Positions 12,506 to 63,242 of a stretch of 64,000 nucleotides of DNA are shown piece by piece. Position 1 is the stretch's first letter. Each line of letters starts with the position of its first letter. The position numbers and the translations under genes are program-made. The notes below the pieces were generated by a model. That model saw only the letters and a program-made list of their open reading frames with translations. It was not told the DNA's origin and ran no database searches. This DNA comes from Macrostomum lignano (taxonomy: Eukaryota), in assembly GCA_002269645.1 (NCBI GenBank), contig NIVC01000206.1, positions 186,001 to 250,000 on the forward strand. The letters run 5' to 3'.

Positions 12506-12539
<34 letters not shown>

Positions 12540-38100: not shown

Positions 38101-38387
38101 GCGCGCTCGTTGATGCCGCCAACGAATACGGCGGTGGCCGGCTTGTCGGTCCCGGCGGCGGCACCGGCGGCTGCTGCGCCGACTGCTCCAATGGGCACGG
38201 GGCCCTTCTTGCTGTCGGCCTCATTCTCTGCTTTTTTGCTATCATCTACTTTGCTGTTGTCTGTGTCTTTTTCTTCTTTCACTTTAGCAATGGATGCTGA
38301 CTGTTCGTTTGCTGATTCATTTGCTGCTGCAGAGTCTTTTGAATCTGCTTTTTCAGTTGCTTTGTCTTCTGTTTTAGGCTCAGGCAT
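32165..38387 (-). CDS. RBM25: RNA-binding protein 25 (RRM, RE/RD-rich coiled coil, PWI), at least 4 exons, ~714 aa; 5' end uncertain
   Basis: Exons 38387-37806, 36770-36279, 33524-33037 (alternative donor 33043), 32747-32165 join in frame. RRM (VFVGGINER...SWKRV...KLQSFGFCEF), ERER tracts, C-terminal PWI (IPTAKDELFAYNLDW...KPWINKKIIEYLGEEE...VVKLWRLLIYETEAKK). The frame is open a few codons upstream of 38387, so an additional 5' exon is possible. Confidence 0.9.
33590..34544. repeat. 46-bp minisatellite (GGGGATCAAGATTGTTGCAGCTAGTAGATGGGGATTTCTATATATT)n in an RBM25 intron; resumes at 36131-36180 after the retroposon insertion
   Basis: About 20 near-identical tandem copies, with one more beyond the insertion. 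Confidence 0.95.
34545..36130 (+). mobile_element. 5'-truncated non-LTR retrotransposon (RTE-like RT) inserted into the 46-bp array
   Basis: RT motifs EQNGFRPQRG, KAFDSV, GVLQGDTLAPFLF, YADD (ORF 35093-36064 plus upstream pieces); (GTT)n 3' tail; TSD GGATTTCTATAT at 34533-34544 and 36131-36142; small deletion/frameshift and a stop before the main ORF. Clade assignment is tentative. Confidence 0.88.
34657..35002 (+). mobile_element. 346-bp solo LTR inserted in the RT ORF
   Basis: TGTAGCG...TTTACA termini; 5-bp TSD TCATT (34652-34656 and 35003-35007); internal TATAAAT and AATAAA; RT homology resumes at KAFDSV. Confidence 0.85.
36815..37640. repeat. ~31-bp minisatellite (CCGGTGTGTGATCTTAAATCAGGGAGAGTGA)n in an RBM25 intron
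   Basis: A homogeneous block to ~37180, then degenerate 28-32-bp variants. Confidence 0.93.
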
Positions 38388-40429
38388 GACAACCTTACAG
38401 TCTTCTTTTTCAGTCTTCTTTCAACTTCAAAAGAAGAAAAAATAATAACGACTTGGAAAAAATCTAACTGTCCTGTTTTAGTGAGTTCACTGTAATGGAA
38501 GTATAGTTCTTGATTTTGAAGTTTGTATAAAATCCTAACTCAACTAGATCCCTATTGGAATTTAATTATAGCCAGGTATCCGCCTACTTTAGTCCAATTT
38601 TCTTTGGTGCACTAGATACAAAACTCAAGTAAAGACTGCTTTATAAGACTATAAAACACTAAAAAGCATATAAGTTAAATTTTAACAATTTATAAATATA
38701 TATTTAGATATATTGAGCAGGTAAAAAGTGGATACACCAAATTCGTAGTTGTAAGAAAGCCTTTTTAAGTTGAAATTATGCTACTATATATAATAAACCC
38801 AAATACTAAGGTCAAAATTTATATGTAATCTTCTAGATAGGAAACCCTATTCAAAATACAATACCTATATTGATAATTATACATTAGTAATTTAATTATA
38901 GGAGGACAACCAGTTTTACAACTCAAGTCTAGCTTATTTTTTGCTGTTTGGAATTCACAATACTCACAAAATATACAAAGAGAAATTCTAAATCTCAACT
39001 TACTATAACTATACAGCATGAGCTATAAACAATAAGTCACTCATAGCTAGTGAAGTGCATGTTGAGGAATTGGTTGATTATCTTTCATTTGGCAGTCATA
39101 AATTTAAGCTAATAATATTACAATGCAAAGTGAATTTTATGAGTGCTATATACCTATAATATAAAATCTATTGTATAATACTATATAGATAGGGATTTCT
39201 TGGTCAAATATGAGTAAGCATTTGGATATTGGTCAAAATGTGTTTTAAAAATGGAAGATAAAACACATCATTTTGTGGTTCATCATTATATTGAATATGT
39301 ATTTGGTCTATCTCTACTTATACTCATAGATATACAATTGTATGTATATAACAAGATCTACAATTTAGATCATTGCTAGGAAATTAATATTGCTAATCGA
39401 ATTTTTGCCTATTATCCTAGGATTGAAAATACCAGTTGGAGAGAAGTTTCCCAGAATTTTTAATTACCACTGTTGAGGTTTTACAAGGGGTATCCCAAAA
39501 GTCCCCAGAATGTTTGCTTTAGCTCCAACTATACCTTGACAATCAAAAGTATGCCAAATGTAGCATAGTTGACAGGATTTTAGATGGTAAAAAATAATTA
39601 TAGGGTCACCATATTATTTGCTTACTATAATAAATATAAAGCATCCTAGTGGATATGAAAGAAAATACCTATCCTGCTAATGTGGAAAACATAGAAATAT
39701 TATATGCTTTTTGCATGCTCAACATGACAACATTGAATGTTAAGAACACAAAGTTTTTAGTATATGTGGCAGTAAAGCTTAGGTATTTGGTATTAGATAT
39801 CTTTAATCATTCAATGGTTAAAGTAGCATATGAATAATGACCATAGCTAAAAAGATAAACTATTCATATATGTGGTTATTTTCCTTAATGCACCTTATTT
39901 CTATCCATATTTTGTGCTTGTTCAATCATCTTGGCTAGGAGTTGGATATTGATTCAATTAAGTAGGGGATGACTGCGTCTTCACTCACTACTCGCATTTA
40001 TAGGCAAAGCGCGATGCACGATATGTAATATCACTCAATTGTCTAATAACCTCACATGACATTGACTTTTGTCTCACTTATTTAAGAACATTAGGTGGTG
40101 GCAGCAACCCACCAAATTAAAGTACATGCTAATAGAAATAATAGTAAAACCCAAACCAGTAGCTTAACCCCACTCCATATGCAAAGATCTGAACCAGAAT
40201 CTATTAGCCTTTAATTTTTGTCTAGTGAAATATAAACTAGTATGTTTTTTGGCAGAAAAATCTTTTAGTTTTAAATGTTTATAAGACTATTGTTTAGATT
40301 TATTAATAAAACCTAAATACTAAAAATGGTCTGTTGGTATCTATCTATCTATCTAGATGCGATCGATTTTAGCTAAAATGGCTCAACTGATTTTTTTCAA
40401 ACTTGCACTGTTTGATTAGAAATAAATAG

Positions 40430-40860: not shown

Positions 40861-43556
40861 ATATTTTCTATTTAGAGGGAGCTATATTTTGTTGACTGTT
40901 TGTTAATTTTAGAGAAAAGGTGATTCATAGCAAACACCTTTGTCCATGACAATTTTACACAAATCAGGTGATTTTCAAAAGTGACAAAGGAATTGATTCT
41001 TAAGAAAATGTGCTTTTTTAATTGTTTTCCATAAACTATTTTTGTTCCTTGCTTATTGGCACCCCAAAGGGGGGCCGCACTGGAGTGCTAGTACAACCTA
41101 ATTATTGTATTATATCATTTATTTGATAATTACAAACAATCTAAACTAAGTAGGCATGTCACTTAAAATAAATCTAGTTACTCAACATTGCAGTTTATCA
41201 CTATATAATATTTTAGAAAGCTACCAAATTTATGAGTATCTACAAAAGCCACTGGTCTAGTGATGTTCCATTAGTGAGAATTGGCTACTATTTTTGTCTG
41301 TGTCACCTTCCATATTTTCTAATATACCAAGAAGTCACTTTAGACAGACTGCTCCAAGTAATTATTTGCTATGTTGTTTAATTGTATATACTCTCATACA
41401 ATTATACTATTTTTCATGTAATATCTTTTTAGAGGCTTCCCAGGAATGTAGCCAAAAGCCAGAGAAGCTTTTAATGAAATTGTGGCAGTCGGGTTGCCAT
41501 TTTGATTATTGAAACTTTCCTATTAATAATATTTTACATTCAATCTACTAAGTTTCATCAAATTTAATTGCATGCCCCAACTCATGGAAATTTTGCATTT
41601 TCTCTCCCAATGGTTGTTTATTTTGTCACCTTCCTGTATGTTGTCCTTTTTTGTCCTAGTTTTGTTCCTCCAATATGTCCCACCAATGAAAAGATGTTTT
41701 GCCACTCTTTTTTGCCATTTTTTCTTGTTAATTTCTGTGCAAACTGCTATTGCTCAACCCTATGCCCACTCTTTTGTCCAACCTGCTATCTAGCTGCCCG
41801 TCCAAGTCTTGCCCCTGTTGTTAAAATTTATTTTTATCTATTTTATATGCATGCCTCACGCGCTACTGATTTTTTTTGTTTCTTTCTTTCCTTTCCATCC
41901 TCCTTCATTTTTCACCCGTGACCGTTAGCATTAAGGAAGTAATAAGTTTGTGTTAATACTTTGTTTTTAATTTTATTAAGCTCTAGTAGACAACCTTAGA
42001 GTCATTTAAGCCGTATACAACTTACTTATAGCGCACTGCAGCTCTGCTTGTCGAATCTTTTTGGTCACACCAAAATACTTTTTACCTGCCTGCTAAAATA
42101 ATTATTTTCTAATATCCAATTGATAATAATAATAATATTAACAATCCACAATAATATCATTTTCATTGACTAATTAAGTAAGCCCATAGCCTTTTTTTAG
42201 TTATTTGCCCACGGGGCATAAAACAAACCAAGTTCTTATCTCAAAGAAAGCTCTGAGGCAAATTTTGTTTTGCAATATAAGAATTATGTTGATGACAGCT
42301 CTACCCTACTAAGAGTAAACAGCTCAACCAATTGACACAACAATATTTATGGTGTCAGAAGCTCCTGTATTTACCATTTGAACAACTGTGTCATTAAAAG
42401 ACTGCTTACCTATGATTACAACTACTCTCCCTTCAGAATTTGAGGACCCTGGCAGTTAGAGTAAAACAAGAGAAAGAATTTTGTTGCGATTTGTCTGCAG
42501 AATTTTTCTGGATTTGTTTGTGCAAATGCAACTAGCCAAATTTTAAAAATCCAAACCAACATATTATTTTCTTTTCTCAACCCCCACCTTAAAATGATGA
42601 AGTGTCCTATTCAAAATATGACATTTTAAAATAAAGCCAAAATTCTAAGAATGGACCTAATAGTATCTATTTAATAAAATAGTGTGGCAGTTAGGGGCTG
42701 CGACTGACTATTTAAATTAACGCTGAAAAATTTTTTTGAAATTTTTTCATCTATTAGACCACCCCATGACCCTTTTCTGCTGTCCCCAGTTTTTGGCCTA
42801 TTGTGTCCACCTTGTGCCCCCAGCTGTTGGGATATTTCATCTTTTCTCCTGTTCCTGCGTTGGTTACCCTGCCCCTTTTTCTGGCCTTGCGAGTCCCTTG
42901 TTTGGTAATTTTGTTTGTGTCTATGTAATTCCGTGATGATTTCTTCTGTTCAATGCTTGGTCACCGCAACCACCTTTTGCCTCCAGCATTTGACCCCATT
43001 TGTCCATTTGCTGCAACTTTATTTTCTATTTAATGGTGCCCTTGGAGTTGCCCAACTTTCATTTCCCCTTGTCTTCTTTTTCTCTTCCTTCCTTCTTTTC
43101 CCACGGCTCCGGCCTTCTTCTTTACTTGAACCTTACCTTCCTTCCCTCTGCCAACCCATTCAATTTATCTATTAATATTTAAATCTGCCTGACTTACTTT
43201 GCAATAATTGTTTATTAATTGGTCAATTGTTTTATTAAGTCAATTGTTTATTAATTGGTTATTAGTGCACTGCAGCATCGCTCGAATCATCCGCCAGATT
43301 AGGCTAGAGTATTCCTATTACTCTGTCACTTTGACATCTTTAGTGTGTTTTATTAATTCTGATATGGTCGCCAGTTTAATTCAGTTGCCAACGAACAATG
43401 AAAACATCTTTTCCCTTTACTTAATAAACAATTTGCATAGTTTTCCGCCGTAATTATGGCTACGGCTACGGCAAATTACGGCTACGACACTTTTGAAGCC
43501 GTATTTTCATTACGGATTACGGTTACGGACATATTTTGAGCTTACGGTTACGGTTA

Positions 43557-44403
43557 TGTAGTGACTGGCTGCTAACTGGCTATTCAGCAGCACTCACTAG
43601 CTTTCTCTTAAGAGTGCTGTGATCCGCTGCACAGTATCTCAGTCCACCTGAGCTTGTGAGAGAGTTACTCTGTGCTGGGCCTATGTGTTTACTGCCCAAT
43701 GACTCATCGCCTGAGCGGGCGCGGGCAGCCACACTCAATGTCTTCCCACTCGCACTGAAGAGGCGTTGCAGGATGACTCATCACCTGCGCGGAGTTTAAT
43801 GGCTGCCTAGAGGGAGTAAACAGGATGACTCATCCGCCCATGTTCTATTTTTAGCACAGAATAAGCACATGACTATGCAGGCACTCTGAGCATGGCCACT
43901 GACCTTGAGTCACGCCACTGCTGCGTGACAGGGTTGCCTTATTTGGAAGTTGGCCTTGGATCACGCGTCGTTCACATGATTCCAATGCCCAAATAAGGAA
44001 GTTTCACGCGCTCACCGCATGAAACTCACGTGACTTTTGGGGGTCCGCTCGGCTATAAATACGGAGCATCTGCGAGCCATTTTTCTCCAGACGGCGTTGT
44101 CTTGCGGAGCATTGTGGCTAACTCGTGAAGCCTCTGCCTCCGAGCTCTCCTCTCTCATTTCAGGTTTTACAGGTTTCAGGTCCAAGCAGCATTCAACTAA
44201 GACGATTGACTGTCGAGACATTTTCAGATTTGGCCTTTGCTCCGAGTGTCTTCGTTAATTTTATTTCAGGTGACGGATAGACAACTTTGCCGACGCGTTG
44301 AGTCCGCACACCAAGGTGGCAGCAACCCTACCAAGTCAAGGCTTACGTTTTAGGTTCATTTTCAGGCAAATCGTTAGGACCGAAGCAAAGGGCAAACGTT
44401 ACA
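43557..44403 (+). repeat. 5' LTR core (847 bp), followed by one 72-bp PBS-containing unit (44404-44475)
   Basis: Matches 52370-53216; TATAAAT at ~44054; ends AAACGTTACA. Confidence 0.95.
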
Positions 44404-44404
44404 C

Positions 44405-44422
44405 TGGTGGCAGCGGTGGGAT
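44405..44422 (+). promoter_or_regulatory. Primer-binding site complementary to the 3' end of tRNA-Leu(AAG/TAG); a second, variant PBS at 44477-44500
   Basis: TGGTGGCAGCGGTGGGAT is the reverse complement of ATCCCACCGCTGCCACCA, the conserved eukaryotic tRNA-Leu 3' end; the second site is TGGTGGAACAGCGGTGAGATTCGA. Confidence 0.88.
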
Positions 44423-44702
44423 ACAAAGACCTGCCAGGCCACCTCGAGACAACCCAGAGACAACCAAACGTTACACTGGTGGAACAGCGGTGAGATTCGA
44501 GATTCGAGACAAAGGATTCGAGATTCAAGACAAAGGATTCGAGATTCGAGACAAAGGATTCGAGATTCGAGACAAAGGATTCGAGATAAGGGATACAACA
44601 AGCAAGCAGGAGAACGTTACCGAATCGACGTCAACGTCACTCAACTATCACCCTTTCGGACACGTCATCAGTCACGCCTACCACGACTAAGTCAGCATCA
44701 AG

Positions 44703-45881
44703 ATGTCTCACGACAGTGATCGAGAAGATCTCATCGGTGATCAGCAGCACACGCATCAGGACAACGGAAACTCCGCCGCAGCTGCTGCAGGTTCGCCCAT
44801 ACCATGTGGTTTAGGATTTAATTTTAGAGACGACTCAAGAGAGGAGGAGGAAGATCCATTTGCAGGACTCAACAACCTCGGACGCGACACCAACCCGGAC
44901 ATGATCCGCAGGATGCTGCAGGCCATGCAATGTCAGCTCGATCTACAGCCTAAGAAGCAAGTCAAGATGAAGAGCTACACGCCATCGCAGGACATCCGCG
45001 TTTGGCTAAAGGCTTTCGACCTACGATGCGAGGCAGAAGATCTACAGGATGAAGACGACAAGAAGGCCCAATTGCTGGCGAATTTAGACTTAAATTCGGC
45101 CTACGCCGCGGTACTTCGCATGAGGCTGCCCGACTGCATCAGCTATTGACAGCTTCAGCAACGGCTAATAGAGAGATTTGCACGACTCTCAGGACCAGAC
45201 GAATATCAAGAGGAATTCAGAGGTCGCAGCCAGCGCAAGAACGAATCAACGGAAGATTACGCCGATGCTCTGCAGGAGCTAGGAGAGCAAGCCTTCCCTT
45301 GGCTCGAGCCTCGCCATCTAGAGCAAGAACTGATTGACCAGTTCCTGCGCGGGATTCGCACGTCATCAGACTGCCGCGAGAAACTTTTCTGGATCCGACC
45401 TACGACACTCAGCGAAGCCTTGCGAGCACTGAAGAGGATGGAATTAGCCAAAGACCTGGCTCATCGTTCGAAGGAGCCCCCGGTCAGAATGTTGGACGGG
45501 GAGGGACAAGCCTCGAAGGAGAACAACAACAGCGCCCTCTCGAAGTTGGAGAAAGTCGTTGAGCAACAAGCCGCAATGATGCAGCAGCAGCAGCATCTGA
45601 TCAACACGTTGGCTCAGCAAGTCACAGCCAATCAAGTGAACAGTCAAGCAAACCGAACGCCGCACTACACGTGCTACGAGTGTAATCAAGAAGGACACAA
45701 GGCGAGAGATTGTCCGTACAGACGCCAATCAACTCAGCAGTTTACGGGAAACGGCCGGCCAGAGGACGTAAATGGCAATGCCCCCCGAGCTCCAGCCCAG
45801 GCTATGCAGCCGACACCGAACACGCCCCGGAAGAGTATGGCCCCGCAGCCGCGGCAGCTGACTCGTCCGAATCGTCAGTAA
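44703..45881 (+). pseudogene. gag: Gypsy gag with CCHC zinc knuckle; one in-frame TGA at 45147-45149
   Basis: ORFs 44703-45149 and 45420-45881 are in the same frame and the interval translates as capsid-like sequence (QLQQRLIERF...DYADALQELG...LIDQFLRG); CYECNQEGHKARDC knuckle. Confidence 0.88.
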
Positions 45882-48800
45882 TCGAAGAAACGGACGATGG
45901 AGGTTTTGTGGACGCCTCCTTTGTAAATACTGTCCATGCGCGTGACGCCGACCCATTTATTACAGGACGAGTGGCTCGACGAGAGGTCGCCTTTCTGCTA
46001 GACAGCGGAAGCAGAAGAAACTTCCTTGGAGCGTCCACTTGGGCCGCCATTAGGCGTCGTTCACCACGTTGTATAGTCGCACCTGCTTATCCTAACCGAG
46101 TCGCTATGTACGACGGGACCGAGTTAAGTCTCGCCGCCAAGGTTATCCTATCAATTGAATTCCGGGACTATGTCGCGGAAACCGAATTCTTCGTCGCCGA
46201 TGGAGACTGTGAAAATCTTTTAGGAATTGATTTCATGCGGAGTCATTGCCAAGGACTGGACTTCCAGCAAGGAATGCTCACATTCCGACAAGGCACCCGA
46301 CTTCCGGTACGCTATTCAAGGAGAGAACTGAAGGCCTGCCGAGTGTACGTCGCTGAAAAATGCACTCTGCCGCCTCAATGTTCCTGCCTCGTCGCCATTA
46401 AACTAGCCGAAGGTCATCAGCAGAACTACGGTTCACCGATGATTATCGAACCGCTCAAATCAGGACTGCGAGCAAAGCATCACCAGTTAGACGCAGCCCC
46501 GGTCCTGCATACGATGACAGAAGGTCGAGGAGTGATGGAAGTACTCAACCCATCAGATACAGAGGTTCACTTGCGTCGCAACATGCTAATGGGAGTAGCT
46601 ACGCCACTCAAGACCCAGGACCTCGAGTACTTCAGCGAGTCGAATGAGCCAGAAGTCCGTCAACTGAATACGACTGAAGAAACGACTGACAGTTGGATCA
46701 ACGAGGTCGACGTCGGAGACCAGCTGAACAGCCACCAGAGGCGCCAGGTTCAAGAAGTACTCAAGGAATGCGAGAAGGCATTCTCTCTAACTCTGTTGGA
46801 CCACGGACTGACACACCTGGTAACTCATGAGATAGTGCTCACAGATTCGACGCCAATCGCGATTCCTCCTCGCCGGATACCTCCGCATCTACAACCGCAA
46901 CTGGATCAGATGCTCGACGATATGCTGAAGAAAGGCATCATTCGGCCAACGTACTCCAGTTACAATTCGCCGATGATCCTAGTGCCAAAGAAGGACAAGA
47001 CGATTCGCATTGTGCACGACTTCAGAGCGATCAACGATGTGACGCTGAAGCACCCGTACCCGATCCCGCACATTCAGGAAACTTTCGCCAAACTCAAAGG
47101 AGCGCAGTGGTACTCAAGCCTCGACCTGGTACAAGGTTTCTACCAGATCCCTCTCCGTGAGGAAGACCAGGACATCACTGCCTTCTCTGTGCTCGATCGT
47201 GGACAATTCTGCTTCAAGGTGCTACCAATGGGACTCACCGACAGCCCCGGATCGTTCCAGCGTTGTATCAATCAACTGCTAGAAGGACTAGCACCGCAGG
47301 CCGCTCTTGGTTACATGGACGACATCGTTGTACACGTAGTGACGTTCGAAGATCACTTAGACCATCTACGACAAGTCCTAAACCGAATCATAGCTGCCAA
47401 CTTGAAGCTAAAGCCGAAGAAATGCCATTTATTCAAGAAGGAGCTCCACTATCTAGGCCACGTGATTACGCCGGAAGGCCTACGGACAAGCGAAGACAAG
47501 ATTGAGCAGATACGCAGTTGGCCAACGCCTCGGACTGTTCGTCAACTATGAAGCTTTCTTGGTCTCGCCAATTACTACAAGAAGTTCGTCGAGGATTACT
47601 CGGGCATTGCGGCCCCGTTACATGCATTGACACGTAAGGACCTGCAAGGATTCCAGCGCCATTGGACGCAGCAGCATCAGACTGCCTTTGAGACTCTGAA
47701 GAGCAAGCTATGCTCAACCGAAGTACTCGCCCTCCCAGAGTTCAATGAGGATCCGAAGGTCAAGTTCATCCTGGATACCGACGCATCCGACACCCGAATC
47801 GGTGCATGTCTAGGACAACTGCAATCCGATGGAATAGAACGACCGATCGCCTTTTTCAGTCGCAAGCTCCGTGACCCGGAAGTTCGCTACACGGTCACCA
47901 AGCGGGAGCTACTGGCTATTGTCGATGCCATGCGACACTTTCGAGAATACTTAATAGGAAAGAAGTTTGAAGTAAGAAGTGACCATAAGGCCTTGCTCTG
48001 GCTGTTACGTCAGACTGAATCTACAGGGATTCTAGGTCGATGGGTCCAGAGGATCAGCGAATTTCAGTTCACCATCTCCCATCGCAAGGGTACTGACCAC
48101 ACCAACGCCGACGCGCTATCAAGACGCCCGGACACGCCTCCGTTAGAATGCGATTACGGAGTACTTCAAGACGTCGACGCTGTCCTGGCTTGCCACCGCG
48201 AGGAGACAGGAGACACCACTCAGCGTAAGTGTCGCCGCATTAAGGAAACTGATCCGGGCATCGATTCAGAGGCCACCGCACCAGCAGCCCTCTCAATCAA
48301 GACCCACAATCGCGATCCAGAGGCAGAGACCGACTTGGACAACGAACCAGAGGCCACCGCACCTGCAGCCCTCTGCCGAGTTCTCCACTGTTCGCGCCAA
48401 CGCCAGGAGACAGTAAGCTTGGATGGAGACACAGAGGCCACCGCACCAGCAGCCCTCTGCCGAGCCACCCACGCTCGCCGTCACTTCAAGGAGACCAATC
48501 TGGATGAAGTTCAAGAGACCACTGTACCCTCAGCCCTCTCCAACGACAGCCATCAGGTCTACCTACAGAGTTGGGAGACTGACTTGGACGAAGATTCGGA
48601 GGCCACCGTTCCAGCAGCCCTCCCAGTCGAGCGCCACGGCTCAGATCTCGGTCGAAAATTTACCACTGAGGAGTCCTGCTGCTCTTCCATGAGCCGACAG
48701 ACTCAGCAGGTCGAGCCGTCTTGTTGCTCTTCCATGAGCCTGCAGCCGACCACCCATTATCAACGCGTGGACGATATGTCTTGCGCCATGACGCGCCTTC

Positions 48801-50515
48801 GTCCTACGCCAAAACCGACGCGTTCCTATGCAGAGGTGACGAAGTCTGCATACGAGGAAGACAGAGCACGTACAGCTGAAGCATCTCCCCAGCTCGCAAC
48901 TTCTCAAAGTCTGCCGCGCTGCCGAGCATTGCTTACGGATCATCTGAAGCCGCCATTGCCGCGCGACAAGCTCATCAAAGCTCAACAGGATGACCCAGCT
49001 ATTGGCTACGTTTACAAGTTGATCAAGGAGAATCAACCGAAACCAGCGTTTGACGATCGATTACGACTTAGCAGAGAGCAACGGAATCTGCTAGGATACT
49101 ACGAGTTACTATTCCTCGAGCGAGACCTACTCATGATCAACATGACGGAAAAAGACACTCCACCGAAGATTGTCTTACCAGTAGCTCTCGACAACGAAGT
49201 TTTTAACGAGCTCCACAATTCGCCTTTAGCAGGACACCAAGGACAGCGAAAGACCGCCCAACGTGTGCGCGAAAGATTCTGGCGAACAGGTCTAGTCCGA
49301 GCCATTGAGACTTACGTCAGCAAATGCCGAACCTGCCTAGAGAGCAAGTCACGACGAAAACAGCAAGTGCAAGTGCAGAGTTTTCTAGTCTGCGAAGTTT
49401 TTGGAAGACTTCACATGGATGTGATCGGACCAATTGCGCAACCGTCCAAAGGAGGTCATCGATACATCCTGACACTCTGCTGTGCGACATCAAAGTTTCC
49501 GATAGCTTATCCGATGAGAAATCAGAAAGCTAAAACCGTTATCCGATTGTTACAGGACCGATTTATTCCAGAATACGGAGTTCCAGCTTGGATTCACACG
49601 GACCAAGGCACGAACTTTACAGGAAACGCCTTCAAGAAGTTCTGTGATCTCTACGCGATCAGGCACACGACAACGACGCCGTACAACCCAGCATCCAACG
49701 GACTGGTAGAAAATCTGAACAAGCAGATCAAGAGCATTCTGACATGTCTCCTCGAGCACGATCATCGCGATTGGGACACATTTCTGCCAGCGTGCATGAT
49801 TGCTCTTCGATCCAGCGTTCATCCAGTCACAGGCTATACGCCTTACTTCTTAGTCTATGGCCGAGAATACAGGATGCCTCTCGACAACTCATTGAAGCTA
49901 CTCCCGGAGTATGCCAACCTGCCTGATTACGTCGCAGAGTTTCAGCAACGCCTCAAGCACGCCACGGACCTCGCCAAGGAACGGCTAGGCCTGCATCAGC
50001 AAGCGCGAGACAAACACTACGAGAACCGACCAGCAGCTAAGAAGCTACAGCCGGGAGATCTCGTCTTCTTGAACAACCCGGTCCTACACGAAGATGAAGC
50101 AGCAAAGTTCCACAGGCCAAGGAGATCGTTGTATGAAGTGGTGGAAAGCAAAGGAGAAGTCGTCTACAAGATTCGACGGAAGGTTCGACACCCTCGAGAA
50201 CGACCGGACGAAATGGTAGTTCATCGCCGGAACCTCCTCCTTGTGCCCACTTCAGATTATCCAATTGCAGATCTCGAAGGGCCAGCTGAACCGAAGAAGC
50301 AACGCCGAGTTCGACAGGCTGACGCCGGAGCTGCGACACTCCCCGCCATCTCTGAGGACTCTGACGAAGAAGACGACCTGGACACGAGACCCGCCTACCG
50401 CTGGCGACTCCGATCAGCTGTTCAGCCAGGCGCGCGTCCAGCCGAAGTCCGCATCCAGGAACCTGAAGTTATGGAGAATAGAGTTGAGCTTGAGTCACTG
50501 CCGTATGTCGTATGA
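45710..50515 (+). pseudogene. pol: Gypsy pol (protease-RT-RNase H-long tether-integrase); one in-frame TGA at 47549-47551
   Basis: LLDSGS (PR), YMDD (RT), VRQL*SFLGLANYY, FILDTDAS...ELLAI...DHKAL...NADALSR (RH), H-x6-H...CRTC and LHMD...HTDQG...GLVE (IN); ORFs 45710-47551 and 47627-50515 share one frame. Confidence 0.93.
45746..45752 (+). other. Candidate -1 ribosomal frameshift slippery site G GGA AAC (gag to pol)
   Basis: X XXY YYZ heptamer correctly phased in the gag frame within the gag/pol overlap; pol is in the -1 frame. Confidence 0.7.
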
Positions 50516-50848
50516 TTCTTGCGACGCTCCATCCGCTCCTACAGTTGAAACGCAGAGGCGACCTGAAATTGAAATTAGCGATAGGTTTAACCTAGACTCT
50601 GATAGGAATAATCAATGTAATAGTCATGTTATGTCGGCCAATTTGCCAAATAATAGTCATGCTTTGTCGGCCAATTTGCCATCAACTAGTCAAGTCGAAT
50701 GGGCCGTCAATGACAGGCCAGTTAGGGCTCGAAGGGAACCTGACCGCTTGGTTCTAAAACCAAAGTCAAAGTCCTACTTGAGCCGGTTAGTTAACTTTTT
50801 CCGCCGGCCTCGTGCCTGTTCCAGCGCTGAAAAGCAAAACTAAAAACA

Positions 50849-51949
50849 ATGACGGGAAAAGAAAACAAGAGGCGCCGAGATCGGGAACCGTCCCGGACAC
50901 CCTCGCCAGCCAGCGGCCGAAAGCACACTCGACCCTCGCGGCCCACCAGCAGAATTCTAACTATCCCAGTGCCCAGCCAAGGTCCGGCTCGCCGTCGAAG
51001 GAGCCGCTGGGACGAGCGTCCGCGCCAGGAAGCCAATATAGAAGTACGCAGGCTGGCACCGCTGCAGCTACCTCACCTCGACGATCGCCTCACAGTCGCC
51101 AGAGAGCGGGCCGCCGCCATTAGGCTCCGGCTCGATCCGCCCCAGGCAATAATGGCCGATGCCCGGTTGCCAGCTGCCGACAAGGCAACCTCGCCAAAAC
51201 GGCCTGGCTCTTCTCCGACGCAGCCACCGGCCGAGCCACCGGTGCCTAGCTCGCGGGAACCACCGCGCCCACACGACGCCGAAAACGCGCTTGATTTGAT
51301 TGGGAGCCTATCGAGCTCTCTGCAGGAAGAGCCAAGCGAAGAGCTGCTTCCAGCACTTCAAGAGCTCCTGGCCCCTGACGCTCAGGCTGCCCCGAACGCA
51401 GCCCTGCCAGCTCCTTTCGACCCGCGAGTGGACGTACTGGACACGCCGCCTCAGCCGCAATCACCACCGCCGGCGTAGTATCTGGGCGTGCTAACGCCGC
51501 CGCCACAGCCTGACATCATCAACCTGGATGACTACAGGACGCCGCCCACGCCGCCATCACCGCGCTTCCGCCGACCGTCGCCCGTGCCATCGCCGCCCCG
51601 CTTATTCAATCAAACGGAACTAGCGGAGGCCATCAGCGTGGCCATCCGGACTTGGCCTCAGCAAAGGGATGCAGCGACCCAAAATGACTGCCTAAGCGTT
51701 GTACAAGAGGGGGCCATCATCGCTCTTACGGAGCTCTTAGTAGCAGCAGGGCTCAAAGGGCAGCTCTGCCGCAGGTGGCCTGACCGCATCCAAGAGGAGT
51801 TCCGTGCGGCCGCGCCTGAGGAAAGGCGACGGGCCATCAAGGAGATCGGCCGTAGAACCGCCGAAGCCCTGCCGCCGCATCCGCCGCACGCCACTACATA
51901 CACTCGAACTGGCGATCCTCAAGCTTCTCTTTTTCCTGGGACAAGCTAA
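50849..51949 (+). pseudogene. Extra Pro/Arg-rich ORF3 of the Gypsy element (~366 codons, one in-frame TAG at 51476-51478), unknown function
   Basis: ORFs 50849-51478 and 51488-51949 are in frame; GC-rich coding-like composition between pol and the AT-rich pre-PPT region; no signal peptide or TM segment seen. Confidence 0.6.
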
Positions 51950-52357
51950 CGATGTGCCGAGCACTTTTTGCAAATTTGTGCATTATTAACAACATCAAAT
52001 TTTTGGCAATAGTAACACTTTTACATTTACGAAATAATTGCAATCAACAACATCAAAACTTTTCAATCTATTTCAAAATTTTTTTTCATCACTTCAAAAA
52101 TAATCAAAATAATCTTTATGCAAAATAATCATCTTAAATATGCATTTTGCTCCCTATAACTTTACAAAAAAAAGCAATCAATCATGTAGTAGGTATAATT
52201 CAACGCTGCCTTACTCAAGTACACCATCTCTTTGTAGGCGCTTCATTTTACGGTCAACTTTATTTGTAATAAATACTCATTATCCAGTGGCCTTGTTAGA
52301 GCCGATTTTTGTTTTCAAATAAAATTGATTCATCGTTTGGCTGCTGCAATTTAATTT

Positions 52358-52369
52358 GGACGGGGAGAG
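52358..52369 (+). promoter_or_regulatory. Polypurine tract GGACGGGGAGAG immediately before the 3' LTR
   Basis: Purine-rich run abutting TGTAGTGACT at 52370. Confidence 0.85.
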
Positions 52370-53360
52370 TGTAGTGACTGGCTGCTAACTGGCTATTCAG
52401 CAGCACTCACTAGCTTTCTCTTAAGAGTGCTGTGATCCGCTGCACAGTATCTCAGTCCACCTGAGCTTGTGAGAGAGTTACTCTGTGCTGGGCCTATGTG
52501 TTTACTGCCCAATGACTCATCGCCTGAGCGGGCGCGGGCAGCCACACTCAATGTCTTCCCACTCGCACTGAAGAGGCGTTGCAGGATGACTCATCACCTG
52601 CGCGGAGTTTAATGGCTGCCTAGAGGGAGTAAACAGGATGACTCATCCGCCCATGTTCTATTTTTAGCACAGAATAAGCACATGACTATGCAGGCACTCT
52701 GAGCATGGCCACTGACCTTGAGTCACGCCACTGCTGCGTGACAGGGTTGCCTTATTTGGAAGTTGGCCTTGGATCACGCGTCGTTCACATGATTCCAATG
52801 CCCAAATAAGGAAGTTTCACGCGCTCACCGCATGAAACTCACGTGACTTTTGGGGGTCCGCTCGGCTATAAATACGGAGCATCTGCGAGCCATTTTTCTC
52901 TTGACGGCGTTGTCTTGCGGAGCATTGTGGCTAACTCGTGAAGCCTCTGCCTCCAAGCTTTCCTCTCTCATTTCAGGTTTTACAGGTTTCAGGTCCAAGC
53001 AGCATTCAACTAAGACGATTGACTGTCGAGACATTTTCAGATTTGGCCTTTGCTCCGAGTGTCTTCGTTAATTTTATTTCAGGTGGCGGATAGACAACTC
53101 TGCCGACGCGTCGAGTCCGCACACCAAGGTGGCAGCAACCCTACCAAGTCAAGGCTTACGTTTTAGGTTCATTTTCAGGCAAATCGTTAGGACCGAAGCA
53201 AAGGGCAAACGTTACACTGGTGGCAGCGGTGGGATACAAAGACCTGCCAGGCCACCTCGAGACAACCCAGAGACAACCAAACGTTACACTGGTGGCAGCG
53301 GTGGGATACAAAGACCTGCCAGGCCACCTCGAGACAACCCAGAGACAACCAAACGTTACA
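52370..53360 (+). repeat. 3' LTR: 847-bp core plus two 72-bp PBS-containing units (53217-53288, 53289-53360)
   Basis: The TSD follows only after the second unit, so both units lie within the integrated element end. Confidence 0.95.
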
Positions 53361-55054
53361 GTTACGGATTACGGAGATTTTTCTAGACTTGCCGTAATTG
53401 GTAGCCGTAACAAAAATTATTTATTTTTAACTGTTTAGTGTTATAAAAGAATTTTTTTATATCAACTTCAACTAGTTTTCATTTTGTTTTACTAGTTATT
53501 ATTATTTTTTATATTTGTTAAGTTTCTAAATATCTACAAAACTTCTTGAAAATGAAAAATGAATTTTTTCACGAATTTTCTCATTAGGCATACAGCATAG
53601 CATAGCATAGCGATAGCATGATAGCAGCGAGACAGAGAGCCAGTCAAAGCCTACAAGAGACTAAGAATCTGGCATTCTTATTTCTTAGCCATATGTAGCA
53701 TTTAGCTCTTTAGCATAAAAATAGGATATTAGATTTAGATTATGAGGATAAGGATGAAAGAATATTAATAAGGAAATACTAAATAAATACTAATAGGATA
53801 AGAATATGAATTATGATTGAAAATTGATTGAAACCAAAGAAGACAATACAATAGACAATGCAATAAAATGAAAATGAAAAAATGTAACATGCAATTTCTT
53901 AGTCATCGGAAATTTTGAAGCAGTTTTATTTGAACAAATTCATATATTTATTTAATGATATTAAACATACACATTGACCTTGGCACGTCAGTCATATATT
54001 CATATTGTAGCGAAACAAAACAGAATCACGACACAGAAAACTGAAAAAGGCACCAAGCACACAATTGCATACAACAATGCTATAGAATACTTCGATAAAG
54101 ATATTATATTTACAAAAAAATAAATGAATATTAATGCATGAACGAACAACAAGTAGGTTTTATTGCTATCCTTTTATCCTTTTTATCTGTCCTTTTCTGT
54201 CTGCCCTACTTTTCATGCAAAAATATCAATTTTTGTTATACATTACGGCTACGGTTACGGCAAATTACGGTTACGGACTTTTTTAGCCCGTAATGACGGC
54301 AAAATTCGGCTACGGAAGTTGCTTCTTTCTTACGGCTACGGTTACGGTTACGGAGGTCAAAACTTGCGGCGGCGGAACACTAAATTTGCAACAACATTAA
54401 ACTCTCATTAATTAATCCAAAGCCTAGCCTATTTTGATTCATTTGCCCACGGGGCATAAAACTACCAAGTTCTTAATTCAAAGAAAGCTCTGAGACTTTA
54501 ACGTCCTGTAATATGTAAAATTATGATGGTGGCAGCCCTATTCTACTGTTAGTAACAAGTCAAACATATGAGATACATTAAGTTTCAGTGTCTGAAGACC
54601 CGCTCTGAATGCTTGCGTCAACGAAGACTGCTTGCCTACGACTAAAACTACCATCCCCCCAGAATTGAGGACCCTGGCAGACAGAGTATCTACAAGACTT
54701 CTAAATTGGGATTCGTCCACGCAAATTTCCAGACTTAATTTGTGTGAACTAACAATGGCGCCGATTTGAAGGTCTGAGCCACTCAAACTTGACATTAAAT
54801 CAAGTGAACACCAGACAACCACCCAATCTAAACTGCCCCCATTTCAATAGCAATCATTGATATATATATAGATCCCCTCTTTTTAAGATATATAGGCCAT
54901 AGTTTGGAACAGTCTATATATATCCCAGAAAAAACAACCAAATTTTTTGGTGCATGCCATAGTTTGAAATAGTCTATATGTACCCCAGAAAAATATGGCC
55001 AAATTTTTTGTGTAGGCCCACTATGACTGATATATACTATACCAAATACATTAC

Positions 55055-59253: not shown

Positions 59254-62154
59254 CCTATTTTAAACAATCGATGTACCTGACGTAACTAAACAAAAAAATT
59301 ATAAGTTTTTACGCAGATAAAAGTTACAAAGGCACTATGAGATAGATTAACATTTAGTTTTTACAAAACTATTGCAATTTCACTAAAAATTCTAAGTTCT
59401 ATTTAGTTTATTTTGAGGAAGCAATTGGTGATAGTGCCATCTCCCCACTCAAGGTTTATTATTGTGTAGATTTTATTGCGTTATGTATTATTGTTTATCT
59501 TCGTAGAAAATTAATTGTAAGAATTACTATGCACGTAAACTGCTCGCCGCTAGATTACGGATTAACCGTGTAGTTCCATTTTATATTAATCAGTTTCTCC
59601 GGCCCAATCTGGCCCCATTGTGCATATCTCATGCAATTTATTATTATCGTTTTCATAGCTATTCTAATTGTACCATAGTAATTTGCAATCAACAAATAAA
59701 TTATCTAAAGTAGCGAGCAGGTTTCAATTTAAACCTACATATATTTAAGCCTAATTAGTGCAAGTATGGAAGAAAGGTAGTGCGGAGTACCCGAAAATTG
59801 GGGAGACACCGGGAATATGCCCCCCCCCTGGAGGGTTAGGACGACCCTGGTGGTCCCTGGACATTTCGGTGACAAGACGTTTCGGTGACAGCCTATTCGG
59901 TGACAATTTAGGACGTTTCGGTGACAAATTTAGACAATTCGGTGACACGTTTTAAAAATGAAAGTTAATTTTGTCTGTAAGATAATATACTCCTGAACCA
60001 AGAGTTAATACTTAAAACTCGTCATATTTTATTGTTTTATGTTGATTTCGTCACTGACACACTGACTTTGTTATATCTACACACTTAATTGGATCCTGCA
60101 CCTGTTCAGATAGGTCAGTCGGCCGAGGCGACCAAGGACCATGCACTGTATACATGACACAGTGGTCCTTGAAGGCGACACGGCAAGCCGCTTATTTCAC
60201 ATACTGCATCATTTGCGACATAATCTGCATGGATATACCCGTATCCAGGGCAACATATGGTAGCATATTTTTACTGCACGATTGATGCAAACAAGTTGGG
60301 TTGTACAATGTACATGTAGTTTGTTACTATACTTACATGTATATCAGTATTATAGTATTTACCTCCTGATGATTGCAAAATGTTATTTTTTATGTATTGT
60401 TTCGATGCACACCACAAACTTCAATAATTTTATGGCTGCTACATATGTATAATGGACATGTAATAGATTACATGTATACATGTACATATGAACCACATGC
60501 GAGAAATGACTTCAGGTTTTGACTTTTGAAAAGATCAGCTACACTAGGTGGATTGGTATGACGATCTATGACTATGATTACTATGACTGGACTTATGACA
60601 TGACTACTCGAGTATGATGATATATATGATTGCTATGATCATGACTATGGCTATGATCACGTTATGAAGACGGCGGGTTTACATGCAATGGGCTACTGAA
60701 AAGCAAAGCAGCGGCATTTCCGCGATTTTCCCCTGGGGCGGTCCCCGGCCGTCGGACCCCAGCTGGTGTGGCCGGCGCGGTGCACCTCAGCTATTTTTCC
60801 ACCGGGATGTAGCTGCTCCAATTTTGCTCTTTTTGGCTTTGTGCGAGAACGATGCAAGTTGCTGTACATGTGCTGCAACTGTACATGTGTGAATAAACAT
60901 GCAGCACGCATAGAGTTAAGGCGATATTAGGAAGAAAATACAGTGATATGACGCGATGGTAAAATTTGCAAAACGCGTGTCTCATGGGAAAGGAAATTAA
61001 GGATGAAATCCCGCTGAGTTCAGAAAGGGTCACGTTAGAGCTTAGAGAGAAATGAGAGACTAACGAGGGGGGGGGGGGGGAATAAAGGAAATAAAGACGG
61101 GGGAAAGAGAGTCCACATTAAGCTTAATAAATTGTATAATTTGCTTTTCAGAACTTGCTGTGCTACATGTAAATCGGCAAGTCTTTATGAAGAAATCTTT
61201 ATGATCGAACAATGAAGAAATCTTTCTTCATTGTTCGATCAATATTAGCACCTTTGATGGTTCAATTTTGCAGAACAGTAAGCTTGTTAAGTAAACCAAT
61301 TGTGCTTACAGGGATTACAATATCTACATCTAAATATACTAAATCTCTAAGGTTTGTATGCTTGCTTGTCCATAACGCTCTAGTGCATTACTAACAATGC
61401 TAATTCTGGAATGGCAAGCACCAATGATTTGGTTGCGCGTTTGCTACCATTCTAAAGCAAAATCATTGTTAGCAGAGAAGCATCGCGCTCGTAAGATGAT
61501 ATAATGTTTGTTTTTGCCACGCCATTCGGGTTAGCAAAGTACGCTCGTAGTAGAACAAACGGATTGCGTATGAAATATGAATGCGCATGAATTTAAAGAC
61601 TCGGTATCCGAGGCGCTAATACGAGTATATAACTTCTAGCAAAGTAGAGCGATAGTTCTTCGAACTCTAGACGCATATTCACAGCTCTGCTGGTTCTAAC
61701 CTTTAATCAGCCAAATAGTTTTTTATTCATGGACGATTACTGCCCAAAATGCAGCCATTCTGTTAGCGGCCGCCAACATGCACTTGACTGTGATAGATGC
61801 AAGTTTTGGTATCATCGACTCTGTTCAACAGGTAAGATTCTACACTTCGCTATTTTTCCCATGTTCGTCATTTAACAGAAAAGATATTCCACCACAAATT
61901 ATATACGTAACTTCGCCAAAATTTCACTTTCCCATAATTTCATTTACCCGAAATATCACTCCCAAGTATCTCAAAGCAATTGCATACACGCATGTGTGTA
62001 GTAAGTACATGTACAGTACACGCCACGCCTTTTTGTTATTATTTTAGGGCGCGCCAGCATCTCTATGGCTAAATATCGTGAGTTACAACGCCGCAGCTCC
62101 TTTAACTGGTGATGCCCAAACTGCAGTTTAGCGGACAATGAGGTTGCCGTAGTT

Positions 62155-62781
62155 GCAGCGGATGAGGAACGTGAGCAGGTTGCTACAGCCAGCGAATCTG
62201 AGGATGGAGCTGCAGCGGATGAGGAACGTGAGCAGGTTGCTACAGCCAGCGAATCTGAGGATGGAGCTGCAGCGGATGAGGAACGTGAGCAGGTTGCTAC
62301 AGCCAGCGAATCTGAGGATGGAGCTGCAGCGGATGAGGAACGTGAGCAGGTTGCTACAGCCAGCGAATCTGAGGATGAAGCTGCAGCGGATGAGGAAAGT
62401 GAGCAGGTTGCTACAGCCAGCGAATCTGAGGATGAAGCTGCAGCGGATGAGGAACGTGAGCAGGTTGCTACAGCCAGCGAATCTGAGGATGGAGCTGCAG
62501 CGGATGAGGAACGTGAGCAGGTTGCTACAGCCAGCGAATCTGAGGATGAAGCTGCAGCGGATGAGGAAAGTGAGCAGGTTGCTACAGCCAGCGAATCTGA
62601 GGATAGAGCTGCAGCGGATGAGGAACGTGAGCAGGTTGCTACAGCCAGCGAATCTGAGGATGAAGCTGCAGCGGATGAGGAAAGTGAGCAGGTTGCTACA
62701 GCCAGCGAATCTGAGGATGGAGCTGCAGCGGATGAGGAAAGTGAGCAGGTTGCTACAGCCAGCGAATCTGAGGATGGAGCT
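62155..62781 (+). repeat. 57-bp coding repeat x11 (AADEEREQVATASESEDGA)
   Basis: 627 bp = 11 x 57, in frame with the PHD and MULE segments. Confidence 0.95.
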
Positions 62782-63242
62782 GCCGCAAAGTTGCTCAAGT
62801 TGCTGCCGCAACATAAATCTGCGGCACAGCTTACAGATGATGAGCGCGAACTCACTTCCTCGACGGTAGCGAACTTGCTGAATCCAACAAATCTAATTAG
62901 AGCTGCAAACCGGTTTCGCGAAAGAGGACGGCCAGAGGAGCCTAGGGATTTAAACTTCCAACTGCAGTTGGAAGCCTTGCCCAACGGATTTCTCAGAAGT
63001 GGTGTCCAGGTTGAATTAGGAAGACGACACTTAGTATTTGCTACTAATCATCAGTTGACACTACTGAGTAGTGCCCACGACGGCCATTTGTGCAACTTTA
63101 CTCGATTCATGGCTTTCTCCGTGCTGAAGGACATCTGAAACAGGTAAGCATGCAATAGGTCAATATTACGATCGTACTCAGCTCTAATATACAGAATTCG
63201 AATCCCCGGAACTATTTTTGAATCCTGATGAATCATACAACA

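What the first reader, a model, noticed from the sequence alone, without database searches (positions are those of the whole stretch)
52370..53360. LTR pair identical across U3 but divergent from the predicted TSS onward, with no poly(A) signal: possible priming within the 3' LTR
Seen by manual comparison: the first 531 bp of the two LTRs are identical. All 7 differences fall in the last ~316 bp, and the first (CA vs TT at 44088-89) is ~30 bp after the TATA box. No AATAAA or ATTAAA was found in the LTR. Established: normal reverse transcription makes both LTRs identical, and later mutations scatter at random. Inference: if transcripts read through the 3' LTR and are primed at its internal PBS, U3 would be homogenised each cycle while 5' and 3' R-U5 are inherited separately, which is exactly this pattern. 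Alternatives are intermolecular strand transfer between two variant RNAs, or gene conversion of U3.
Basis: partly seen in the sequence, partly recalled or inferred. Interest (0 to 1): 0.8.

Follow-up and report, generated by a model that had tools for sequence, protein, structure and literature searches.

The report
Retrotransposon with repeated primer sites
This is a broken jumping gene, probably from a flatworm, whose two end repeats differ only after the predicted transcription start, most likely because it was copied from two slightly different RNAs, and whose ends carry unusual extra copies of the primer site.

Summary
A 9.8-kb Ty3/gypsy element (43557-53360, GTTA target duplication; nearest named relatives in Macrostomum lignano) has LTRs identical over 531 bp, then 7 differences. 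These sit in one 212-bp patch; the last 176 bp are identical again. Uniform scatter gives P = 0.003-0.04. A 72-bp unit (tRNA-Leu primer site plus an 11-bp copy of the LTR end) occurs once at the 5' end and twice at the 3' end.

Missing AATAAA is weak evidence: 92% of resampled sequences lack it, and a flatworm LTR is polyadenylated without it. 3' priming would lose a unit every cycle. In the published Ty1/Ty3 scheme the plus strand pairs with R-U5 at the minus-strand end and the primer site is not inherited from tRNA. Two different co-packaged RNAs then give shared U3, different R-U5, different unit numbers and an uncorrected degenerate primer site (my inference; confidence 0.5). Rivals: gene conversion 0.2, 3' priming 0.13, assembly mosaic 0.09, chance 0.08. 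One locus cannot separate them, and no sibling copy was reachable. The tandem primer-site/LTR-end units were not found in my literature searches.

The parts
43553..43556 (+). Left target-site duplication GTTA, inside a short host array of (G/A)(C/T)TACGG repeats
   Evidence: the empty site reads as a continuous 6-bp-period array
43557..44403 (+). 5' LTR core, 847 bp, TGTA...TACA
43557..44087 (+). Stretch identical between the LTRs (531 bp; predicted U3), with four TGA(C/G)TCA AP-1-type motifs and no canonical heat-shock element
   Evidence: the AP-1 label is recalled
44054..44059 (+). Only TATAAA in the LTR (3' copy at 52867); initiator-like CCATTTT at 44077. The transcription start is predicted, not mapped
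44088..44299 (+). Patch holding all 7 differences from the 3' LTR (counterpart 52901-53112)
44118..44365 (+). Branch-point-like CTAAC, pyrimidine tract and six YTNCAG splice-acceptor motifs (five TTTCAG), with no GTRAG donor between the TATA box and them; same six in the 3' LTR (52971-53178)
   Evidence: matches the top trans-splice acceptor motif of M. lignano (PMC8629364)
44404..44475 (+). 5' 72-bp unit: C + 18-nt primer-binding site (44405-44422) + 42-nt spacer + 11-bp copy of the LTR end
   Evidence: the site is the exact complement of the tRNA-Leu-AAG 3' fragment (PMC9161985)
44477..44500 (+). Degenerate second primer site: 22-nt match to the tRNA 3' end with a 2-nt insertion and one mismatch
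   Evidence: -34.9 against -40.1 kcal/mol
44494..44587 (+). Leader tandem repeat (21-bp period, 4.5 copies) carrying eight GATTCGA boxes complementary to the tRNA T-loop side; further LTR-end-like AACGTTAC at 44613
44703..45881 (+). gag with CCHC zinc knuckle; broken by an in-frame stop at 45147-45149; G GGA AAC slippery heptamer at 45746
45686..50515 (+). pol in the -1 frame: protease-like motif, RT, RNase H, about 300-aa repetitive spacer, integrase; broken by an in-frame stop at 47549-47551
   Evidence: 78%, 62% and 53% identity to M. lignano proteins
50849..51949 (+). Third, proline/arginine-rich reading frame with an in-frame stop at 51476-51478; no relatives found
52268..52323 (+). Two AATAAA hexamers (52268, 52318) in an AT-rich 3' UTR, upstream of the 3' LTR
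52358..52369 (+). Polypurine tract
52370..53216 (+). 3' LTR core, 847 bp
53217..53360 (+). Two tandem 72-bp units, identical to each other and to the 5' unit (perfect primer sites at 53218 and 53290); the element ends at the LTR-end copy of the second unit
53361..53364 (+). Right target-site duplication GTTA

Best explanation
A defective Ty3/gypsy copy was made by two-template reverse transcription with ordinary 5' priming. (1) SHOWN: the leader carries alternative tRNA-Leu primer sites, each preceded by the same 11-bp LTR end, and an extended end was the one integrated (the target duplication follows the last unit). (2) INFERRED: priming at a downstream 5' site made a strong-stop DNA of R-U5 plus unit(s), which jumped to the 3' R of a second co-packaged RNA. 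(3) PUBLISHED for Ty1/Ty3, INFERRED here: the minus strand ends in R-U5 sequence, which needs an RNA whose 5' end is still intact, and the plus strong-stop DNA anneals there. (4) INFERRED: if the two templates differ by 2-3% in R-U5, the new 5' LTR is a heteroduplex from the transcription start onward, while U3 comes from one template. Fixing the minus-strand type leaves what is seen: identical U3, different R-U5, the acceptor RNA's own leader (one unit plus the degenerate site) at the 5' end, and the donor's unit number at the 3' end. The source of the 3' R-U5 (another family member, or the parent's own 3' R after an early jump, which would also explain the identical tail) is not resolved. 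The second 3' unit may instead be a later slippage duplication. Proteins came in trans, or the stops arose later.
For: Placement likelihoods against uniform scatter for 6 events: 154-177-fold for differences confined from the predicted start to the LTR end; 510-700-fold for start to core end or start to a random end; 15-fold for one-sided conversion; 33-fold for a random patch. Ty1/Ty3 plus-strand transfer uses R and U5 at the minus-strand 3' end, and the primer site is not copied from tRNA (PMC5371799, section 2 read); this fits the uncorrected degenerate site at 44477. First transfer is often intermolecular (PMC12789967 passages). In ONSEN, 27 of 32 sequenced new insertions had more than one parent, and old members took part (PMC5668417 part 2). 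The degenerate site is a plausible primer site. One event accounts for both the sequence asymmetry and the 1-versus-2 unit asymmetry.
Against: There is only one locus: no other piece of the element in the window, 0 matches to the unit in genome contigs, and 0 of 23 related loci resemble the LTR, so no donor was found. The review of recombining LTR elements states that the product has identical LTRs (PMC6894440), and the ONSEN text I read reports no non-identical pair (figures not seen). The start site is predicted only. If packaged RNA were trans-spliced at the first acceptor (44163), 4 of the 7 differences would lie outside the RNA and the model could not explain them. The 7 differences fall into about three tight groups, so the likelihood ratios overstate the case. 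The stop-codon count does not discriminate. The priors behind 0.5 are my judgement.
Confidence: 0.5

Rival explanations
1. Gene conversion after insertion (between the two LTRs, or from another copy or cDNA) homogenised U3 or imported the 212-bp patch; the extra 3' unit is a separate slippage duplication between the 11-bp repeats.
For: Possible converted tracts were found in 25% of plant LTR pairs (stated as an upper limit), mostly 100-1000 bp long and mostly within one element (PMC7251063 passages). Fits 15-33-fold better than uniform. A patch bounded by identity on both sides is natural for it. The host DNA is rich in young minisatellites.
Against: It does not predict a boundary within about 10 nt of the predicted start, and fits 5-40 times less well than the start-bound models. 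It needs a second event for the unit number. The frequencies come from plants.
Confidence: 0.2
2. One reading: RNA reads through the 3' LTR into the units and is primed there with no first jump, or a short unit-only strong-stop DNA jumps onto the 3' units, so that the whole 3' LTR is inherited from the 3' end.
For: Two perfect primer sites lie inside the 3' end (-40.1 kcal/mol). There is no AATAAA or single-substitution variant between the TATA box and 53360. It gives the same start-bound pattern (154-177-fold) and explains more units at the 3' than at the 5' end.
Against: Hexamer absence is expected in 92% of resamples. The flatworm ta-TRIM LTR is polyadenylated inside the 3' LTR without AATAAA (PMC4558846 passages). 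Two AATAAA upstream and six splice-acceptor motifs in R-U5 give other ways to end or cut the RNA before the units. Plain 3' priming loses at least one unit per cycle and needs a parent with three or more 3' sites. The last 176 bp are identical (P = 0.05-0.14). No precedent turned up in searches.
Confidence: 0.13
3. Assembly or polishing mosaic: reads from another family member replaced part of one LTR or the internal region.
For: This is a multi-copy element, and the M. lignano assembly is described as redundant in a hidden tetraploid (PMC12801592), if that is the host. The target duplication lies in a repeat array, so its match is weaker proof than usual.
Against: The empty site is continuous and the duplication matches. 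There are no frameshifts in about 5.9 kb of gag and pol, and no indels between the LTRs. It has no reason to respect the TATA position.
Confidence: 0.09
4. Ordinary ageing: 6 mutation events happened to cluster, and the unit was duplicated independently.
For: P is only 0.02-0.04 on the least post-hoc statistic, and up to 0.16 if there are 4 events. A genome scan sees many LTR pairs. 2 stops in gag-pol are compatible with 0.38% per copy (0.8-0.95 expected, P = 0.20-0.25).
Against: P = 0.003-0.011 on the end-anchored statistics, and the boundary coincides with the only TATA box.
Confidence: 0.08

Closest known systems
Yeast Ty3 and Ty1 reverse transcription (PMC5371799; section 2 and passages read)
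   Same: Same superfamily as Ty3. Plus-strand transfer through R-U5 and a primer site not inherited from tRNA would produce this LTR asymmetry and keep a degenerate site. Ty3 also has tRNA-complementary sequence near the RNA 3' end (bipartite site).
   Different: Ty3 has one priming site and fixed LTR ends. Here whole 18-nt sites are repeated together with the LTR end, and a fixed non-identical LTR pair is seen, which the review does not describe.
ONSEN/COPIA78 recombination during reverse transcription (PMC5668417 passages and part 2; PMC6894440 part 1 and passages)
   Same: Co-packaged RNAs from different, also old and broken, family members recombine at the U3/R boundary.
   Different: Described products are mosaic LTRs that are the same at both ends; Ty1/copia superfamily; no repeated primer sites in the text read.
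Macrostomum lignano Ty3/Mdg4 families (Mag, CsRN1, Gmr1/Osvaldo, Mdg3/micropia; PMC12801592 parts 1-3 of 6, supplement 1 read, five supplements searched)
   Same: Nearest named proteins: BOX15_Mlig016504g5 (78%), Mlig008663g1 (62%) and Mlig004203g3 (53%); the first two share the repetitive RNase H-integrase spacer.
   Different: A different family from those hits. No heat-shock element. The LTR motifs were not found in the supplements (long sequence runs are cut there). Clade not assigned.
HIV-1 MAL-type partial primer-site duplication (PMC3185550 passages)
   Same: A natural duplication of primer-site sequence downstream of the functional site.
   Different: Partial (23 nt), without a copy of the LTR end, and never part of the 3' LTR in the text read.
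Echinococcus ta-TRIM and C. elegans Cer1 (PMC4558846, PMC3315495; passages)
   Same: Flatworm LTR with a tRNA-Leu site, 4-bp target duplication and no AATAAA; a gypsy element whose short RNA is SL trans-spliced while the 8-kb RNA is not.
   Different: No repeated primer-site units or asymmetric LTR pairs in the passages read.

Membership tests
Ty3/gypsy (Ty3/Mdg4) LTR retrotransposon | Direct LTRs with TG...CA ends flanked by a 4-6 bp target duplication | tested here: met
   TGTA...TACA and GTTA on both sides
Ty3/gypsy (Ty3/Mdg4) LTR retrotransposon | tRNA primer site after the 5' LTR and polypurine tract before the 3' LTR | tested here: met
   18 of 18 complement to the tRNA-Leu-AAG 3' fragment as printed for mammals and a snail; the host's own tRNA was not available (one search found none). 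PPT at 52358-52369
Ty3/gypsy (Ty3/Mdg4) LTR retrotransposon | gag, then pol in the order protease-RT-RNase H-integrase | tested here: met
   Pfam zf-CCHC, RVT_1, RT_RNaseH, Integrase_H2C2 and rve in that order. The protease is seen only as a D-S-G motif in the translation, with no Pfam hit
Ty3/gypsy (Ty3/Mdg4) LTR retrotransposon | Autonomous (intact gag and pol) | tested here: not met
   One in-frame stop in each; a defective copy
Named clade (Mag, CsRN1, Gmr1/Osvaldo, Mdg3/micropia) | RT phylogeny with reference members | not testable with these tools
   No named clade references were returned. Integrase lies after RT, so it is not the Gmr1 domain order (that order is recalled)
env-bearing gypsy (errantivirus-like) | Third ORF encoding an envelope protein | tested here: inconclusive
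   The third frame has no Pfam, homologue or Atlas hit and looks proline/arginine-rich; membrane segments were not predicted
Ty1/Ty3-type two-template reverse transcription | Identity ends at the transcription start | tested here: inconclusive
   Met for the predicted start; the start was not mapped
Ty1/Ty3-type two-template reverse transcription | A donor copy carrying the 3' R-U5 haplotype | not testable with these tools
   No host genome or sibling copies were reachable
   No RNA data; motif evidence is weak in both directions
   Last 104 bp of the core and the unit are identical, P = 0.05-0.14

The most novel reading that the evidence does not exclude
This family has given up a poly(A) site in its LTR and uses the 72-bp primer-site/LTR-end units as its working terminal repeat. 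RNA reads through the 3' LTR; tRNA-Leu primes at a 3' unit, or a unit-long strong-stop DNA jumps onto the 3' units; the long R-U5, packed with trans-splice acceptors, is inherited separately at the two ends; and out-of-register transfers make the unit array grow and shrink. That would be an LTR element that skips or relocates the first strand transfer, and it would break LTR-pair dating for the family.
Probability: 0.12. Interest if true: 0.8.

Novelty: new variant of a known kind. Interest (0 to 1): 0.4.

Why it matters
If the best explanation holds, this is a genomic fossil of the Ty1/Ty3 plus-strand transfer route in an animal element. It would show that LTR pairs can be born different in R-U5, which biases insertion dating by LTR divergence, and it gives a simple genome-wide test: are identity boundaries enriched at the transcription start? 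The tandem primer-site/LTR-end units give alternative integration-competent ends and a built-in record of which primer site was used, so priming choice and template switching could be read from genome sequence alone. If the 3'-priming reading held, it would be a new replication route. As it stands, it is one defective copy whose pattern known mechanisms can produce.

Tried and rejected
1. The first ungapped comparison was off by one base and its mismatch list is meaningless; it was redone. The motif lists are valid.
2. CpG decay as the cause of clustering: rejected; density is similar in U3 and the patch, and 2 of 5 single differences are at CpG.
3. Older decayed units inside U5: the best match is 9 nt, P about 0.1; not supported.
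4. Stop codons as an independent clock: 2 stops in 5937 bp against 0.8-0.95 expected at 0.38% per copy and 2.0-2.2 at 0.9%; with the third frame, 3 against about 1.0 or 2.3-2.5. Not discriminating, and the third stop may sit in a 34-nt GT...AG segment.
5. The doublet as a relic of the spliced leader: only one of its two bases matches the end of the M. lignano leader printed in PMC8629364; not accepted.
6. RNA folding of the two R-U5 versions: -116.4 against -122.0 kcal/mol, with no compensatory pair seen; uninformative.
7. Rfam: 1 chance-level hit in 43000-55000. ARAGORN: 0 tRNA genes in the window.
8. Sibling copies: none in the window; 0 matches for a 28-nt unit pattern in genome contigs. 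The RT scan gave 23 loci at 34-44% identity; 0 of 23 resemble this LTR and 5 of 23 hold a distant direct repeat. 4 of those 5 were examined; 2 are complete pairs with a primer site, each present once, and the 6 mismatches of L012 are scattered. Too few to serve as a control.
9. Third frame: no Pfam hit, no homologue (near-length proteins only), no Atlas hit for its second half.
10. Literature: searches (26 was for the tRNA fragment) found no report of tandem primer-site/LTR-end units or of 3'-LTR priming. The library lacks most subscription and older papers; the Lauermann and Boeke 1997 paper was not held and is cited only through the review. Repbase was not searchable. bioRxiv supplements were not seen, and the long sequence runs in supplement 5 of PMC12801592 are cut, so the family could be described there. 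From recall only, not read: retroviral vectors with two primer sites initiate at both.
11. Viral and metagenome contig collections stayed unchecked. The host species was not established.

Full report
What is there. Self-comparison of the window shows one LTR pair, at 43557 and 52370. The element runs 43557-53360 and is flanked by GTTA on both sides, inside a short host repeat array. It encodes gag with a zinc knuckle, then pol in the -1 frame with RT, RNase H and integrase in Ty3/gypsy order, with a slippery heptamer at 45746. gag and pol each carry one in-frame stop (45147, 47549). A third reading frame (50849-51949, stop at 51476) has no relatives. The nearest named proteins are from Macrostomum lignano, at 78%, 62% and 53% identity. 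The host is therefore probably a Macrostomum flatworm; the species was not shown.

The observation. The 847-bp LTR cores are identical for 531 bp and then differ at 7 positions, with no indels. The first difference lies 29 nt after the only TATAAA. For 6 events, uniform scatter gives P = 0.003-0.011 on end-anchored or span statistics and 0.02-0.04 for the largest gap anywhere; with 4 events, up to 0.16. The clustering is probably real but not overwhelming for a genome scan.

The units. A 72-bp unit consists of C, an 18-nt primer site, a 42-nt spacer and an 11-bp copy of the LTR end. It occurs once after the 5' core and twice after the 3' core, and all three are identical. The site is the exact complement of the tRNA-Leu-AAG 3' fragment (PMC9161985, passage; also listed in a snail, PMC7328434, passage). 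After the 5' unit comes a degenerate site (44477-44500) that matches 22 nt of the tRNA end (PMC12025293, passage) with a 2-nt insertion and one mismatch; it pairs at -34.9 against -40.1 kcal/mol. Because the target duplication follows the last 3' unit, at least one unit was part of the integrated DNA. Ordinary priming at a downstream 5' site yields an LTR that contains a primer site, so a primer site in the 3' LTR is no evidence that it is used there.

The poly(A) argument. AATAAA and ATTAAA are absent from the LTR, and no single-substitution variant lies between the TATA box and the element end. But only 8% of 5000 resamples of that stretch contain either hexamer, and the Echinococcus ta-TRIM LTR is polyadenylated inside its 3' LTR without AATAAA (PMC4558846, passages). 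Two AATAAA lie just upstream of the 3' LTR, at 52268 and 52318. The post-TATA part also holds five TTTCAG (0.5 expected, P = 0.0004; none in U3; the densest 320-bp stretches on either strand of the window). These match the top trans-splice acceptor motif of M. lignano (PMC8629364, passages). In Cer1 the short RNA is SL trans-spliced and the 8-kb RNA is not (PMC3315495, passages). How this RNA ends is open; read-through is neither shown nor excluded.

Mechanism. The textbook outcome is two identical LTRs (PMC6894440, part 1 and passages). The scheme published for Ty1 and Ty3 differs: the plus strong-stop DNA ends at U5 and anneals to R and U5 at the 3' end of the minus strand, and the primer site is not inherited from tRNA (PMC5371799, section 2). 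I infer that this R-U5 must be copied from an RNA whose 5' end is intact, that is the second co-packaged RNA. If the templates differ, the new 5' LTR is a heteroduplex from the start site onward, while U3 has one source. Fixing the minus-strand type gives identical U3, different R-U5, the acceptor's own leader with its uncorrected degenerate site, and a different unit number at the 3' end. Intermolecular first transfer is documented (PMC12789967, passages), and 27 of 32 new ONSEN insertions had more than one parent (PMC5668417, part 2). Placement likelihoods favour start-bound models by 154-700-fold over uniform, against 15-33-fold for conversion. These ratios assume 6 independent events and a predicted start. 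Against this reading: no donor copy was found, the texts read describe identical LTR pairs as the product, and trans-splicing of packaged RNA at the first acceptor would put 4 of the 7 differences outside the RNA.

It needs unshown read-through and a parent with three or more 3' sites, loses at least one unit each cycle, and lets about half of the progeny homogenise. It cannot by itself keep separate 5' and 3' clades (inference). A variant in which a unit-long strong-stop DNA jumps onto the 3' units avoids the loss and is the most novel reading left open. Gene conversion is a serious rival: possible tracts were found in up to 25% of plant LTR pairs (PMC7251063, passages). The stop-codon count does not discriminate between a young and an older parent.

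Outside evidence. There is no second copy in the window. The unit pattern had 0 matches in genome contigs. An RT scan there gave 23 distant loci; 0 of 23 resemble the LTR, and the 2 complete LTR pairs with a primer site each carry it once. In the M. lignano LTR paper (PMC12801592: parts 1-3 of 6 and supplement 1 read, five supplements searched) the motifs were not found, but long sequences are cut there. Searches found no report of tandem primer-site/LTR-end units or of 3'-LTR priming; the nearest case is the partial duplication in HIV-1 MAL (PMC3185550, passages). The library is incomplete.

Verdict. My probabilities, with subjective priors: two-template reverse transcription with 5' priming 0.5, conversion 0.2, 3' priming or unit-mediated read-through 0.13, assembly mosaic 0.09, chance 0.08. 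The element is a defective Ty3/gypsy member with an unusual end structure: a new variant of a known kind. Interest 0.4; the novel case has probability 0.12 and would deserve 0.8.

Noticed in passing
window 44118-44365 and 52931-53178: R-U5 holds a branch-point-like CTAAC, a pyrimidine tract and six YTNCAG motifs with no donor upstream: the densest TTTCAG cluster in the window. Candidate SL trans-splice acceptors; the 3' LTR copies could also trap splicing.
   Followed up: partly
window 44085-44090 versus 52898-52903: The CA/TT doublet creates a seventh YTNCAG acceptor motif only in the 5' LTR, and the difference at 44273 gives the 5' copy CAG/GTGA, a more donor-like junction, against CAG/GTGG.
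   Followed up: partly
window 44494-44587: Eight GATTCGA boxes, complementary to the tRNA T-loop side, in a young 21-bp tandem repeat that begins inside the degenerate primer site. GGGATACAA (44590) and AACGTTAC (44613) follow, suggesting an older second unit split by the repeat.
   Followed up: partly
window 50849-52323: A third reading frame without relatives, then an AT-rich UTR with two AATAAA ending just before the polypurine tract; it looks like a separately polyadenylated gene inside the element. The stop at 51476 lies in a 34-nt GT...CTAAC...CAG segment that could be a small intron.
   Followed up: partly
window 48150-48800: About 300 aa of repetitive spacer between RNase H and integrase (EAT-x-AA repeats), shared with M. 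lignano proteins P0019 and P0045.
   Followed up: partly
window 43700-43912: Four TGA(C/G)TCA (AP-1-type, label recalled) motifs in U3 and no canonical heat-shock element; a possible stress- or wound-responsive promoter.
   Followed up: no
window 43440-43556, 53361-53410 and 54242-54353: The insertion target is a cluster of (G/A)(C/T)TACGG repeats; a similar uninterrupted cluster lies about 900 bp downstream. Its GTTAC core resembles the element's own end. Target preference was not tested.
   Followed up: partly
window 8113-12815 (-) and 17902-20564 (-): Two tandem Src-type kinase genes (SH3, SH2, tyrosine kinase).
   Followed up: no
window 26555-27241 (+), 32165-32779 (-), 35057-36064 (+), 37761-38420 (-): DUF4806, PWI, a second RT-like fragment and an RRM domain.
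   Followed up: no
window 1-1117, 18630-19118, 25900-26430, 33605-34544, 36813-37637, 62154-62783: Many young minisatellites (periods 21-93 bp), and inverted repeats at 11088-11600.
   Followed up: no
L004 269-11594 and L012 7777-13155: Complete animal-type gypsy elements with LTR pairs and primer sites lie inside contigs labelled as bacterial MAGs, probably host contamination.
   Followed up: partly
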